Source: Candidatus Baldrarchaeota archaeon (GTDB taxonomy: Archaea > Asgardarchaeota > Baldrarchaeia > Baldrarchaeales > DXJG01). From it: a DNA stretch of 32,000 nucleotides. The position numbers were made by a program, and so were the translations under genes. A model generated the notes under the pieces. That model saw nothing but the letters and a program-made list of their open reading frames with translations. It had not been told where the DNA came from and searched no databases. Of this stretch, positions 25,186-27,553 are shown piece after piece. Location: positions 74,735 to 106,734 of the forward strand of contig DXJG01000002.1 in assembly GCA_019056805.1 (NCBI GenBank), in the 5' to 3' direction. Each line of letters opens with the position of its first letter. The first letter of the stretch is position 1.

Positions 25186-25572
25186 TTACGTTAATATATC
25201 TAAAATTTTCCTCAAATTCACCATTATTAGTCCAAGTTGAGCTCTTGCATCGGAACTGGCAAGAGCTATAAGTGACATTGTAGGTGACGAAGCGATTATA
25301 ATATATCCCTCATCTCCAACCAGATGAAGTTCTTTAATATTTCCTTTGCCCATTTCTTTACTTAGATTATTTATTTCGTTGATAATTTTTGCAAGTTTTG
25401 CTAATATGATATCACTTGGACTTTTAGAAATGGTTTCAGAGGCAAGTACAGTTCCATCTTTAGAAATAGCAACTAAACCTTCTATAGTTGTTATTTCATC
25501 CATTAATTTTAGAAACACTTTTCTAATTCTTTCTTCACTATGCATGCCTTCCACTTCCCGCAAATAAGCCAT
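25186..25572 (-). CDS. Roadblock/LC7 domain protein (RB1), divergent from the GTPase operon
   Basis: IEGLVAISKDG.VLAS, ELGKG-like EMGKGNIKELHLVGDEGYIII, and C-terminal AQLGLIMVNL helix. Confidence 0.85.
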   Translation of the reverse strand: MAYLREVEGMHSEERIRKVFLKLMDEITTIEGLVAISKDGTVLASETISKSPSDIILAKLAKIINEINNLSKEMGKGNIKELHLVGDEGYIIIASSPTMSLIALASSDARAQLGLIMVNLRKILDILT

Positions 25573-25727
25573 ATAGATTATTACTAAGTAGTTATATTTA
25601 AATTAACCTCTCAGACATATCTCTCTTAGATCTTGTGTTTTATCAGATAATTATGATTTTTACGCTAAAGGTTTAAAAGAAAGTTGACATGATATTTGTG
25701 TAGTTATAAGCGATTAAGGGAAGTAAT

Positions 25728-26012
25728 ATGATCAGTCAAAAATGGATTAAAGATACTATAGAAAGATTAACAAGTCATGAAGGAGTAAAAGGAGTTGTAA
25801 TTACAAGCGCCGAAGGAATACCTCTAAGTTCTACTTTAAGTTCTGATGAAACGGAGAAAATAGCAGCATTTGTTACATCAATCGTAGATAAAGCAAGGAA
25901 AATAATTAACGAGTTGGGAACCGGTAAACTAAATTTTCTAACGGTCGATGCATCAAAAAAGGAGTTACTTATAGCATCTGAGAAGGATTACATTCTAATA
26001 GTCTTAAGATAG
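25728..26012 (+). CDS. Short Roadblock/LC7 protein (RB2), DYNLRB-like, lacking the C-terminal helix
   Basis: RL.S..GV.G......EGIP..ST...KAR...L.FL......E...A..KDY.LIV pattern; 94 aa. Confidence 0.88.
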   Translation: MISQKWIKDTIERLTSHEGVKGVVITSAEGIPLSSTLSSDETEKIAAFVTSIVDKARKIINELGTGKLNFLTVDASKKELLIASEKDYILIVLR

Positions 26013-26044: not shown

Positions 26045-26509
26045 ATGATAGATGTTAAACTATTTGAAAAAATCCTCAACGATCTAATAAAAAGTGAAAG
26101 TGGAATACGAAAAGTAATCCTTGTAGACAGAACAGGATTAACCATTGCACACGCTTCGAAATTTTCCTATTACCCCGTAGATATCGATGGAATAGGAGCA
26201 ATAGCAAGTGCAGTCTTCGTTGCTAGTGAAGAACAAGGAAAAAACCTAGATATAGGCGAATTAATGTTAGTAACGTCTGAATTTGAACAAGGAAAAATAT
26301 TTGCTGCAAGCTGCGGAAAAGGTGTGCTCTGTGTTATAACAGACTCCGATGTAAATATTGGAATGGTGCGTTTACTAATGAAAAGAGCAGCTACAGAACT
26401 AGGAAAGGTTCTCGATGAATTCCTCGCAGAACAGCCTACATTACCAGCGGCTGAAGATGAAACACGTGACAAATTGAAGTCAGCATTGGACAAATTAGAA
26501 GAATTTTAA
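26045..26509 (+). CDS. Roadblock/LC7 protein (RB3) with a C-terminal extension
   Basis: GIRKVILVDRTGLTIA, IGAIASAVF.ASE..G..L..G, VNIGMVRLLMKRAA, then an extra acidic linker and helix (ETRDKLKSALDKLEEF). Confidence 0.85.
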   Translation: MIDVKLFEKILNDLIKSESGIRKVILVDRTGLTIAHASKFSYYPVDIDGIGAIASAVFVASEEQGKNLDIGELMLVTSEFEQGKIFAASCGKGVLCVITDSDVNIGMVRLLMKRAATELGKVLDEFLAEQPTLPAAEDETRDKLKSALDKLEEF

Positions 26510-26531: not shown

Positions 26532-27113
26532 GTGAAAAGAGATAGAGATGGACGAGTACATTTCAAAATTGTATTTTGGGGGCCTTCCCTATCTGGAAAA
26601 ACCACTACTCTTAGATGGATATACGATAATGTTTCAGGTTTATCTAAGGGTGGATTTACCTCCATCGAAGATCCTACCGGAAGGACGTTATATTTTGATT
26701 ATACCCCCCTTTCAGCTAGTGGAGATGTAATTTTTGACGTTTATACAGTTGCAGGCCAAAAAAGACATAAACACCAACGGAAAATCATTTTACAAGGGAT
26801 CGATGGTATAATTTTTGTAGCCGATTCTGATCCATCACAACTTGATGCAAATGAGGAAAGTATGGAAGAATTAAGAGAACTACTAAAAGACCGTCTTGGA
26901 ACAGAAATTCCATTAGTAATTATGATTAACAAAAGAGATCTTCCAAATGCTGCAGATAAAGATGAAGTCCTAGAAAAACTTCATGTCACGAGTATGGATG
27001 TACCTATTTACGAGACAATCGCAACAAAAGGAATAGGTGTAAAAAGAGCTTTCCAAGCGATTGCTAGGGAAGTTTTATTAAGAAGACTTTACAATTTAAA
27101 AACAACGACATGA
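26532..27113 (+). CDS. MglA-like (Arf-related) small GTPase
   Basis: G1 GPSLSGKTT, switch I GRTLYFD, G3 YTVAGQ, ILQGIDGIIFVADS, G4 NKRD, G5 TIAT. Follows the MglA pattern (DRTLFFD/TVPGQ) rather than Ras DxxGQ. Confidence 0.9.
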   Translation: MKRDRDGRVHFKIVFWGPSLSGKTTTLRWIYDNVSGLSKGGFTSIEDPTGRTLYFDYTPLSASGDVIFDVYTVAGQKRHKHQRKIILQGIDGIIFVADSDPSQLDANEESMEELRELLKDRLGTEIPLVIMINKRDLPNAADKDEVLEKLHVTSMDVPIYETIATKGIGVKRAFQAIAREVLLRRLYNLKTTT

Positions 27114-27181: not shown

Positions 27182-27553
27182 ATGTCTGAAGCAAGTAGTG
27201 AAACCTTGGAAGATATACTCAAGGACCTAGAAGCCACAGTACCCGATATCGAAGCCGCTGCAATTGTCAGTATAGAAGGATTACCGATTGCTTCAGCTTT
27301 ACCCGCTGATGTAGACGAGACACGAGTTGCTGCTATGACGGCGGCTATGTTATCTTTAGGAGAAAGGGCTGCATCGGAGTTGGGAAAAGGCGAGCTGGAA
27401 CAAATATTTGTCAAGGGTAAAGAAGGGTACATAGTTGCAATGAGTGCTGGGCCCAGTGCCGTATTAACAGTGACAGCGAGAAAACAAGCGAAGTTAGGTC
27501 TAATTTTCCATTACATGAAACAAACAGCGGAGAAAATAGCAAAAATGATTTAA
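27182..27553 (+). CDS. Roadblock/LC7 (MglB-like) protein (RB4)
   Basis: DIEAAAIVSIEGLPIASAL..VDETRVAAMTAAMLSLGERAASELGKGELEQIFVKG..GY...AKLGLIF. Confidence 0.92.
   Translation: MSEASSETLEDILKDLEATVPDIEAAAIVSIEGLPIASALPADVDETRVAAMTAAMLSLGERAASELGKGELEQIFVKGKEGYIVAMSAGPSAVLTVTARKQAKLGLIFHYMKQTAEKIAKMI

What the first reader, a model, noticed from the sequence alone, without database searches (positions are those of the whole stretch)
25728..26012. RB2 closely resembles eukaryotic dynein light chain Roadblock (DYNLRB)
Seen: 94 aa ending right after the last strand (KDYILIVLR), with no C-terminal helix. Compared by eye with human DYNLRB1 as I recall it (RLQSQKGVQG..EGIPIKST..KAR..LTFL..E..A.DKDYFLIV), roughly a third of positions match, including the EGIP-ST, KAR, L-FL and KDY-LIV blocks. 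This is a from-memory estimate. Inference: an archaeal relative of the dynein LC7 subfamily operating with a small GTPase, which hints at its pre-dynein role.
Basis: partly seen in the sequence, partly recalled or inferred. Interest (0 to 1): 0.65.

Follow-up and report, generated by a model that had tools for sequence, protein, structure and literature searches.

The report
Asgard relative of dynein roadblock
This 94-residue protein of an uncultured Baldrarchaeia (Asgard) archaeon belongs to the archaeal group closest to the eukaryotic dynein light chain Roadblock/LC7, but that group and a crystal structure of a relative are already published, so the finding is correct and not new.

Summary
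Window 25728..26012 (+) encodes a 94-aa Roadblock/LC7 protein that ends right after its last strand, with no C-terminal helix. It is 33-36% identical to eukaryotic DYNLRB (PDB phmmer E 4.5e-16 to human DYNLRB1; profile-profile E 1.6e-30). A human-like DYNLRB1 finds RB2 as its best match in this genome.

In a 149-sequence tree, RB2 and its Asgard orthologues group with eukaryotic DYNLRB. They are separated from MglB-like, generic archaeal and bacterial Roadblocks (UFboot 100 / SH-aLRT 94).

It is not new. The best PDB match is 7F8F, "Roadblock from Odinarchaeota LCB_4" (about 51% identity, full length). This is very probably the Odin-RBLC7 protein of Tran et al. 2024, who solved it using a dynein Roadblock model. 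"RLC7" has been listed as an Asgard eukaryotic signature protein in earlier literature, including for Baldrarchaeota MAGs.

The orthologue occurs in 382 of 400 genomes of the phylum.

RB2 sits in an operon RB2-RB3-GTPase-RB4, with RB1 divergent. RB3 is MglB-like and keeps a C-terminal helix; the GTPase is MglA-like. The operon is conserved across many Asgard classes. A working link to this GTPase switch is therefore likely, but it rests on synteny alone.

The parts
25728..26012 (+). RB2: 94-aa short Roadblock (RBLC7 type, alpha-beta-beta-alpha-beta-beta-beta, no third helix). It is the orthologue of the 7F8F protein (Roadblock from Odinarchaeota LCB_4, very probably Odin-RBLC7) and lies in the clade that holds eukaryotic DYNLRB.
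25573..25727 (.). 155-bp divergent intergenic region between RB1 and RB2. It holds an A/T-rich TATA-like TTTAAAA about 50 nt upstream of the RB2 ATG. The promoter assignment is read by eye and was not tested.
   Evidence: sequence
25186..25572 (-). RB1: 128-aa Roadblock paralogue, divergently transcribed. It is syntenic in many Asgard classes but poorly conserved (25-36% identity outside the genus).
26045..26509 (+). RB3: 154-aa MglB-like Roadblock. It has the full fold with a third helix (105-128), a variable linker and a conserved C-terminal helix (137-153). It starts 32 nt after RB2.
26532..27113 (+). MglA-like small GTPase, 193 aa. It carries a threonine in the G3 motif (T-V-A-G-Q) and a switch-I arginine, as MglA does. 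It starts 22 nt after RB3.
27182..27553 (+). RB4: 123-aa generic Roadblock with a third helix. It has bacterial relatives that lie next to small GTPases. It starts 68 nt after the GTPase.

Best explanation
RB2 is the Baldrarchaeia orthologue of the Asgard 'RBLC7/RLC7' short Roadblock protein. This is the prokaryotic lineage from which, or beside which, eukaryotic dynein light chain Roadblock (DYNLRB/LC7) arose.

Shown here:
- The sequence, the predicted fold and the lack of a third helix.
- Membership of the clade that holds DYNLRB.
- Near-universal presence in the phylum.
- Conserved placement directly upstream of an MglB-like Roadblock and an MglA-like GTPase.

Taken from the literature: the solved Odinarchaeota orthologue (PDB 7F8F, very probably the Odin-RBLC7 of Tran et al. 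2024) forms a homodimer, and the missing third helix leaves a groove on the sheet that binds a partner's helix in dynein and in Ragulator.

Inferred, not shown: the RB2 dimer is an accessory scaffold or regulatory subunit of the MglA/MglB-type GTPase switch encoded beside it. It would play a role comparable to MglC beside MglB in Myxococcus, or to LAMTOR4/5 beside LAMTOR2/3 in Ragulator. It would dock a helix or a Roadblock dimer of a partner, and so tune or localise GTP hydrolysis. There is no dynein in this organism, so RB2 is a homologue of LC7 and not a dynein subunit.
For: Identity and fold:
- Pfam Robl_LC7, 67 bits.
- PDB phmmer: 7f8f E 3.3e-25 over the full length, then 19 dynein Roadblock/LC7 sequences at E 8e-18 to 4e-7, ahead of any other Roadblock.
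- AF2 model, pLDDT 94.8, ends after strand 5.
- Foldseek: rank 1 is 7f8f, 'Roadblock from Odinarchaeota LCB_4'; ranks 2-17 are dynein LC7 chains (TM 0.8-0.9). Thor and MK-D1 Roadblocks, LAMTOR2 and MglB come later.

Affinity to DYNLRB:
- A phmmer search of 1.84 billion representatives lists Asgard orthologues, then dozens of eukaryotic DYNLRB (sequences read).
- hhalign RBLC7 against DYNLRB: E 1.6e-30. Against the operon's own MglB-like RB3: E 1.5e-7.
- A human-like DYNLRB1 finds RB2 as its best match in this genome.
- Tree: LC7 clade 100/94, eukaryotes monophyletic 100/99.
- Residues V20, K55, F70, E79 and I91 are shared by both groups and rare in other Roadblocks.

Distribution:
- 382 of 400 genomes of the phylum match.
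- 77 of the 80 best named loci carry Asgard or unassigned-archaeon labels. The other three are labelled Thermoproteota (L066), Thorarchaeota among Heimdall-type loci (L088) and Deferrimicrobium (L110). L066 and L110 show Asgard gene content.

Link to the GTPase switch:
- The GTPase matches Thermus MglA at E 1.4e-39; the next class, Arf, reaches only 5e-11.
- RB3 matches Thermus MglB at E 2.6e-9, including the tail, and the NCBIfam MglB model at 5.9e-11.
- Gene gaps are 32, 22 and 68 nt.
- The order RB2-RB3-GTPase-RB4 is kept in MAGs labelled Baldr, Jord/Frey, Hermod, Atabey, Borr, Hod, Wukong and Thor. A large Heimdall group keeps RB2-GTPase.
- The two families without a clear RBLC7 also lack the conserved RB3 type.

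Literature: Tran et al. 2024 (PMC10933270) solved Odin-RBLC7 as a homodimer, by molecular replacement with dynein Roadblock 3L7H, and proposed helix binding.
Against: - No direct evidence that RB2 touches RB3, RB4, RB1 or the GTPase. Synteny is the only link.
- The operon is not obligatory. Odin genomes keep RB2-RB3-RB4, with the GTPase elsewhere. Hel genomes have RB2 with two RB4-like genes. Families f24 and f25 keep the GTPase without a clear RBLC7.
- Tran et al. state that MK-D1 GTPases are generally not in operons with Roadblocks.
- The tree is unrooted, built on 97 columns, and lacks LAMTOR2-5, MglC, bacterial MglB and non-Asgard archaeal Roadblocks. Whether DYNLRB branches inside or beside Asgard RBLC7 is unresolved (70/32 and 88/69 at the relevant nodes).
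- The homodimer is taken from the orthologue's crystal structure and was not tested for this protein.
Confidence: 0.8

Rival explanations
1. RB2 itself is a direct GTPase platform. On this reading it is a second, short MglB-like GAP/GEF dimer that contacts the MglA-like GTPase, and not an accessory scaffold.
For: In a large group of Heimdall-labelled genomes the unit is just RB2 followed by the GTPase. The MglB-like gene is diverged (45-46% identity) and lies elsewhere. Roadblock dimers are general GTPase platforms (Levine 2013 and Koonin & Aravind 2000, as cited).
Against: RB2 gives no phmmer match to any MglB at E up to 10. In most classes a well-conserved MglB-like gene (57-77% identity) lies between RB2 and the GTPase. 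Neither known short-Roadblock pair (dynein LC7, LAMTOR4/5) contacts a GTPase directly.
Confidence: 0.15
2. RB2 is a general dimeric helix-binding hub that works on partners unrelated to the neighbouring GTPase. On this reading the shared operon reflects co-regulation or history only.
For: The operon is broken in Odin, Hel and probably Loki-type contigs. RB2 (42-57% identity between classes) is less conserved than RB3 or the GTPase.
Against: Adjacency to RB3 and/or the GTPase persists across lineages that differ in nearly all other flanking genes. That is hard to explain without a shared function.
Confidence: 0.15
3. RB2 is an ordinary prokaryotic Roadblock, and its likeness to DYNLRB is no greater than that of any other Roadblock.
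For: Roadblock domains are common in prokaryotes (PMC12962969). The genome has 10 paralogues.
Against: - Median identity is 33% to DYNLRB against 18% to other Roadblocks.
- The tree split has support 100/94.
- hhalign gives E 1.6e-30 to DYNLRB against 1.5e-7 to RB3.
- RB2 has no match in 72,556 plasmid records, where RB4 finds 38 bacterial records.
Confidence: 0.02
4. The gene reached Asgard archaea from a eukaryote, or the contig is contaminated with eukaryotic DNA.
For: None found.
Against: The flanking genes look archaeal on reading their translations (TFB-, S8e-, SRP19- and UppS-like, not run against any family library). Full-length orthologues occur in most genomes of the phylum, and their sub-clades largely follow the class labels. 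Eukaryotes form one clade with support 100/99 and are not interleaved with the archaea.
Confidence: 0.02

Closest known systems
Odin-RBLC7 (OLS18093.1, Odinarchaeota LCB_4; Tran et al. 2024), very probably PDB 7F8F
   Same: Both are 94 aa and align end to end (E 3.3e-25; 48 of 94 identical by my count on the alignment). Both have the same fold without the third helix. Odin genomes have the same neighbours RB1 / RB3 / RB4.
   Different: The class differs (Baldrarchaeia, not Odinarchaeia). In this window the MglA-like GTPase lies inside the cluster, whereas in Odin genomes it lies elsewhere. The link between the accession OLS18093.1 and PDB 7F8F is my inference from the PDB title and the paper, because the paper's text does not print the PDB code.
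Eukaryotic dynein light chain Roadblock: DYNLRB1/2, Drosophila Robl, Chlamydomonas LC7a/b
   Same: Same length class and fold. Identity is 33-36% and best hits are reciprocal. Signature residues are shared and the two groups fall in one clade.
   Different: RB2 falls outside the monophyletic eukaryotic group. The organism shows no dynein heavy or intermediate chain, so RB2 cannot be a dynein subunit. Its partner is unknown.
LAMTOR5 (HBXIP) and LAMTOR4, the short Roadblocks of Ragulator
   Same: Both are short Roadblocks without the third helix that work next to full-length Roadblock dimers in a GTPase-regulating complex. RB2 scores 31 bits on Pfam LAMTOR5, above the cut-off of 27.
   Different: Robl_LC7 scores twice as high. 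Eukaryotic DYNLRB cross-hits LAMTOR5 to the same degree (13-35 bits), so the hit is not specific. No LAMTOR4/5 chain appears in the phmmer list or the Foldseek top 50. No LAMTOR1-like wrapping protein was looked for.
MglB and MglC of Myxococcus/Thermus (Roadblock regulators of MglA)
   Same: Both are Roadblock dimers encoded beside an MglA-type GTPase. MglC is a precedent for a second Roadblock dimer that binds MglB and not the GTPase.
   Different: RB2 lacks the third helix and the C-terminal helix of MglB and shows no significant sequence match to it. In this operon the MglB role is filled by RB3.

Membership tests
Roadblock/LC7 superfamily (Pfam PF03259) | Match to the family profile above the curated cut-off | tested here: met
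   67 bits against 23, E 1.2e-18, covering residues 8-93
Roadblock/LC7 superfamily (Pfam PF03259) | Alpha-beta-beta-alpha-beta-beta-beta core fold | tested here: met
   AF2 model with pLDDT 94.8. Foldseek probability is 1.00 to many solved Roadblocks.
Asgard RBLC7 / 'RLC7' orthologous group (Odin-RBLC7 type) | Short form that ends after strand 5, with no third helix | tested here: met
   94 aa; the last element is E88-93. Orthologues are mostly 94-116 aa and the 94 residues align end to end in most of them.
Asgard RBLC7 / 'RLC7' orthologous group (Odin-RBLC7 type) | Orthology to the solved Odin protein | tested here: met
   7f8f is the best PDB match by sequence (E 3.3e-25, residues 1-94 to 1-94) and by fold. 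Both fall in the same tree clade and share neighbouring genes.
Asgard RBLC7 / 'RLC7' orthologous group (Odin-RBLC7 type) | Homodimer | not tested
   Known only from the crystal structure of the orthologue. No dimer prediction of RB2 alone was run.
Dynein light chain Roadblock (DYNLRB/LC7) of eukaryotes | Closest relatives are DYNLRB (best hit in both directions, shared clade) | tested here: met
   RB2 nevertheless lies outside the eukaryotic clade, which has support 100/99.
Dynein light chain Roadblock (DYNLRB/LC7) of eukaryotes | Subunit of a dynein motor, bound to the intermediate chain | tested here: inconclusive
   The genome (91% complete) has no Dynein_heavy match and no Dynein_IC2 match above cut-off. 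However, the heavy-chain control rang in no genome, so the search has no positive control. From general knowledge archaea have no dynein, so functional membership is not expected.
MglB (GAP of MglA) | Full Roadblock fold with a third helix and sequence likeness to MglB | tested here: not met
   No MglB appears among the phmmer hits at E up to 10. MglB ranks 44th or lower in Foldseek at 10-18% identity. There is no third helix. RB3 meets these features instead.
LAMTOR5 (Pfam PF16672) | Specific match to the family profile | tested here: inconclusive
   31.1 bits against a cut-off of 27, and all 33 orthologues hit it. Bona fide DYNLRB sequences hit it equally. No LAMTOR5 sequence was on hand for the tree.

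The most novel reading that the evidence does not exclude
RBLC7 is a stoichiometric subunit of a multi-Roadblock Asgard GTPase switch made of RBLC7, an MglB-like Roadblock, an MglA-like GTPase, RB4 and perhaps RB1. That would be a Ragulator-like assembly around an MglA-type GTPase. On this reading, dynein LC7 (and perhaps LAMTOR5) descend from this GTPase-regulatory subunit, and the helix-binding groove first served that switch before dynein recruited it. The conserved operon found here would make this testable with recombinant proteins.
Probability: 0.3. Interest if true: 0.6.

Novelty: already known. Interest (0 to 1): 0.3.

Why it matters
Dynein is a eukaryotic invention, and what its light chains did before dynein existed is an open question. 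Asgard RBLC7 is the closest prokaryotic relative of LC7.

The family, its structure and a helix-binding proposal are already published, so this window adds no new kind of protein. What it offers is a concrete, conserved gene neighbourhood (RBLC7, an MglB-like Roadblock, an MglA-like GTPase and another Roadblock) that names candidate partners. Tran et al. wrote that genome layout rarely helps to match Asgard GTPases to their regulators. For this operon it does, and the partners can be tested with a few recombinant proteins.

Tried and rejected
- Complex prediction with two copies of RB2 plus the RB3 tail (residues 124-154), both given as alignments: verdict 'no answer' (score 0.02, mark 0.32). 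This is neither support nor evidence against.
- The look-up of sequencing runs on the operon: no RNA holder listed, only DNA metagenomes. Nothing can be said about expression, and read laying was not used.
- The search for homologous proteins (word index) found only 2 proteins for RB2. The exhaustive phmmer search replaced it.
The Asgard-only alignment A2 worked.
- I tried to reach non-Asgard genomes through the oddly named loci L066 ('Thermoproteota') and L110 ('Deferrimicrobium'). Both genomes hold 16-18 Roadblock paralogues and the Asgard operon, so they are mislabelled and gave no outgroup. Four bacterial Roadblocks from plasmid records served as outgroup instead.
- RB2 against 72,556 plasmid records by tblastn: no match at E up to 0.01.
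- Pfam Dynein_heavy and Dynein_IC2 in the window's own genome: nothing above cut-off. The heavy-chain control rang in no genome, so this carries little weight.
- The look-up of encoding contigs for P0018, the Asgard subgroup nearest eukaryotes in the tree, gave one unnamed 3.6-kb contig with no GTPase beside it.
- Klinger et al. 2016 (PubMed id 26893300) is not held in the library. I did not find a copy of Zaremba-Niedzwiedzka et al. 2017 through the searches, so its 'RLC7' entry is cited only through later papers.
- I considered reading the Pfam LAMTOR5 hit as a Ragulator link. I rejected this because eukaryotic DYNLRB cross-hits the same model.

Full report
**1. The observation**

The ORF at 25728..26012 (+) starts with ATG and encodes 94 residues. 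It matches Pfam Robl_LC7 at 67 bits against a cut-off of 23.

An AlphaFold2 model built on 33 orthologues has mean pLDDT 94.8. Its elements are helix 4-15, strands 22-27 and 32-35, helix 39-63, and strands 70-75, 78-84 and 88-93. The chain stops one residue after the last strand, so the third helix of full-length Roadblocks is absent.

Identity figures:
- 35% to a human-like and 36% to a fly-like DYNLRB domain.
- 36% by tblastn.
- A median of 33% to 43 diverse eukaryotic sequences.

'Roughly a third' is therefore right. The match is far beyond chance: E 8e-18 to fly Robl and 4.5e-16 to human DYNLRB1 in a search of 177,635 PDB sequences.

**2. What it is**

The best PDB match is 7f8f, also 94 residues, aligned 1-94 to 1-94 at E 3.3e-25. 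I count 48 identical positions in that alignment. Foldseek names the entry 'Roadblock from Odinarchaeota LCB_4' and ranks it first. Sixteen dynein LC7/Roadblock chains follow (TM 0.8-0.9). Only then come the Thorarchaeota and MK-D1 Roadblocks, LAMTOR2 and MglB.

Tran et al. 2024 (PMC10933270) describe this protein as Odin-RBLC7. They solved it by molecular replacement with dynein Roadblock 3L7H. It is a homodimer that lacks the C-terminal helix. They proposed that it offers a binding site for a partner's helix, as DYNLRB does for the dynein intermediate chain and LAMTOR4/5 does for LAMTOR1.

The window belongs to a 1.92-Mb, 35% G+C genome. A same-genus relative is named Candidatus Baldrarchaeota. 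RB2 has a match at E 0.001 or better in 382 of 400 genomes of the phylum, in most of them a full-length orthologue. Of the 80 best named loci, 77 carry Asgard or unassigned-archaeon labels (Odin, Jord/Frey, Hermod, Atabey, Borr, Heimdall, Thor, Hod, Hel, Wukong and others). The other three carry odd labels and are covered under 'Limits' and in the passing notes.

**3. Affinity to dynein Roadblock**

Five tests agree.
- A phmmer search of 1.84 billion cluster representatives returned a handful of Asgard orthologues and then dozens of eukaryotic DYNLRB at 28-44% identity. No other kind of Roadblock appeared among the best 150.
- A human-like DYNLRB1 domain searched against the window's own genome finds RB2 first (E 2.2e-17). 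A second short paralogue comes next (4.7e-7). Nothing else is significant, although the genome has ten Roadblock paralogues.
- Profile-profile comparison gives E 1.6e-30 for Asgard RBLC7 against DYNLRB. It gives only E 1.5e-7 against the MglB-like Roadblock of the same operon.
- I built a careful IQ-TREE (LG+C20 PMSF) of 149 sequences. They were 42 Asgard RBLC7, 43 eukaryotic DYNLRB, orthologues of RB1, RB3 and RB4, six further paralogues of this genome and four bacterial Roadblocks. RBLC7, DYNLRB and the second short paralogue fall on one side of a branch with UFboot 100 / SH-aLRT 94. Eukaryotes are monophyletic at 100/99.
- V20, K55, F70, E79 and I91 are shared by more than 70% of both groups and by 0-5% of the other Roadblocks.

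Where eukaryotes attach within or beside the Asgard group is not resolved. Support at the relevant nodes is 70/32 and 88/69, and long branches are involved.

**4. Surroundings**

RB2 is followed at gaps of 32, 22 and 68 nt by RB3, a small GTPase and RB4. RB1 is transcribed divergently.

The GTPase is an MglA:
- It matches Thermus MglA at E 1.4e-39 and Myxococcus MglA at 6e-38. The next class, Arf, reaches only 5e-11.
- The alignment shows the MglA hallmarks: a threonine in place of the G3 aspartate, and the switch-I arginine.

RB3 is MglB-like:
- It matches full-length Thermus MglB at E 2.6e-9, aligned through the tail.
- It matches the NCBIfam MglB model at 5.9e-11, below that model's strict cut-off.
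- Its AF2 model has the full fold with a third helix, a disordered linker and a terminal helix at 137-153. That terminal helix is conserved across classes behind a variable linker.
- In Myxococcus the MglB C-terminal helix binds MglA at a second site (Baranwal et al. 2019, as cited). This is the more economical reading of the RB3 tail.

RB4 is a generic Roadblock. Its bacterial relatives lie next to 'ATP/GTP-binding protein' genes.

**5. Conservation of the operon**

The order RB1(-) | RB2-RB3-GTPase-RB4 is kept in genomes labelled Baldr, Jord/Frey, Hermod, Atabey, Borr, Hod, Wukong and Thor. Outside the genus, RB3 is 57-77% identical, the GTPase 53-72% and RB2 42-57%.

Variants:
- Odin and one Hod genome have RB2-RB3-RB4, with the GTPase elsewhere in the genome.
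- A large Heimdall-labelled group has only RB2-GTPase, with a diverged RB3 elsewhere.
- Hel genomes have RB2 next to two RB4-like genes.

The two families of the phylum without a clear RBLC7 also have only very diverged RB3-like genes (24-33% identity), yet they keep the GTPase. This is weak evidence: there are only two groups, they are related, and I picked them by the absence of RB2.

**6. How it most likely works**

Shown:
- The fold and the missing third helix.
- The clade shared with DYNLRB.
- The conserved neighbourhood.

Taken from the literature: the homodimer and the helix-binding groove.

Inferred: RB2 is an accessory scaffold or regulator of the MglA/MglB-type switch. It would act like MglC beside MglB, or like LAMTOR4/5 beside LAMTOR2/3. 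I put this at about 0.6-0.7, given that the family assignment is about 0.95. A direct GTPase-platform role and a role unrelated to the GTPase remain open as rivals.

**7. Comparison with what is known, and novelty**

- 'RLC7 roadblock domain protein' is reported for all MAGs of a study that included Balderarchaeota (bioRxiv 10.1101/2021.04.02.438162).
- Seitz et al. [quoted passage not shown]
- Liu et al. count three Roadblock/longin families and two GTPase families among Asgard core genes.
- A 2026 study finds only four Asgard Roadblock clusters enriched in eukaryotic structural hits (PMC12962969).
- Archaeal MglA-MglB pairs, including a Thorarchaeota pair, are discussed in PMC13408092.

The finding is therefore correct but already known.

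The piece I did not find spelled out in the papers I read is the conserved placement of RBLC7 directly upstream of the MglB-like and MglA-like genes. Tran et al. say that MK-D1 GTPases are generally not in operons with Roadblocks. I could not read Klinger et al. 2016 or the supplements of Liu et al., so I do not claim priority.

Earlier notes of this scan on the same window (e1-5395124, e1-5395126) describe the four-Roadblock cluster and the RB3 tail. My results agree with them.

**8. Limits**

- The tree has 97 columns and is unrooted. It lacks LAMTOR2-5, MglC, bacterial MglB and non-Asgard archaeal Roadblocks.
- For those families I rely on the PDB sequence and fold rankings.
- Class names come from the record titles of MAGs, and some are wrong.

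Noticed in passing
outside the window: G000:C9 about 529,006-529,320 (L006:1459-1773, + strand): A second short Roadblock of 101-104 aa with no third helix. Its best PDB matches are again 7f8f (E 2.5e-9) and fly Robl (1.2e-8). It is the second-best hit of human-like DYNLRB1 in the genome. It stands alone between a peptidase-like gene and a transporter-like gene. In the tree it falls in the LC7 clade on a long branch.
   Followed up: partly
L073-L101 (Heimdall-labelled loci), L095/L097/L098 (Odin), L105/L108 (Hel): Variants of the operon. A large Heimdall group keeps only RB2-GTPase. Odin keeps RB2-RB3-RB4 without the GTPase. Hel has RB2 beside two RB4-like genes on the other strand. The missing genes exist elsewhere in the Heimdall and Odin genomes that were checked.
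   Followed up: partly
window 26410-26509 and alignment A3: RB3 (MglB-like) ends in a short acidic amphipathic helix. The helix is conserved across Asgard classes behind a linker of variable length and sequence. RB3 as a whole (57-77% identity) is more conserved than RB2.
   Followed up: partly
L042, L066, L088, L110 (records named): Probable mislabelled MAGs.
- 'Candidatus Odinarchaeota AUK032' is 95% identical to the window's RB2 and shares its whole operon, so it is a Baldrarchaeia-type genome.
- 'Thermoproteota S9B3_HD70' and 'Candidatus Deferrimicrobium sp.' carry the Asgard gene cluster and 16-18 Roadblock paralogues.
- 'Thorarchaeota QM1B.68' has the Heimdall-type layout.
   Followed up: partly
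P0002 (104 aa, on a 730-bp ENA contig): The first half carries a UppP-like Pfam hit (PF02673). The last 51 residues are 73% identical to the C-terminal half of RB2 (identical to that part of P0001, the same-genus orthologue). This looks like an assembly or gene-calling chimera.
   Followed up: no
H1, H2 (two 2.17-Mb Neisseria gonorrhoeae records filed among plasmids): The closest non-Asgard matches of RB4 (44-45% identity over 95% of its length) lie in stretches with no annotated gene in the incomplete PLSDB table for these records. This is an unexpected host for an archaeal-type Roadblock, and it may be contamination.
   Followed up: no
P0009 (297 aa) and P0008 (129 aa): Eukaryotic gene models with a duplicated or partly duplicated DYNLRB domain. 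They could be tandem gene copies merged by the gene caller.
   Followed up: no
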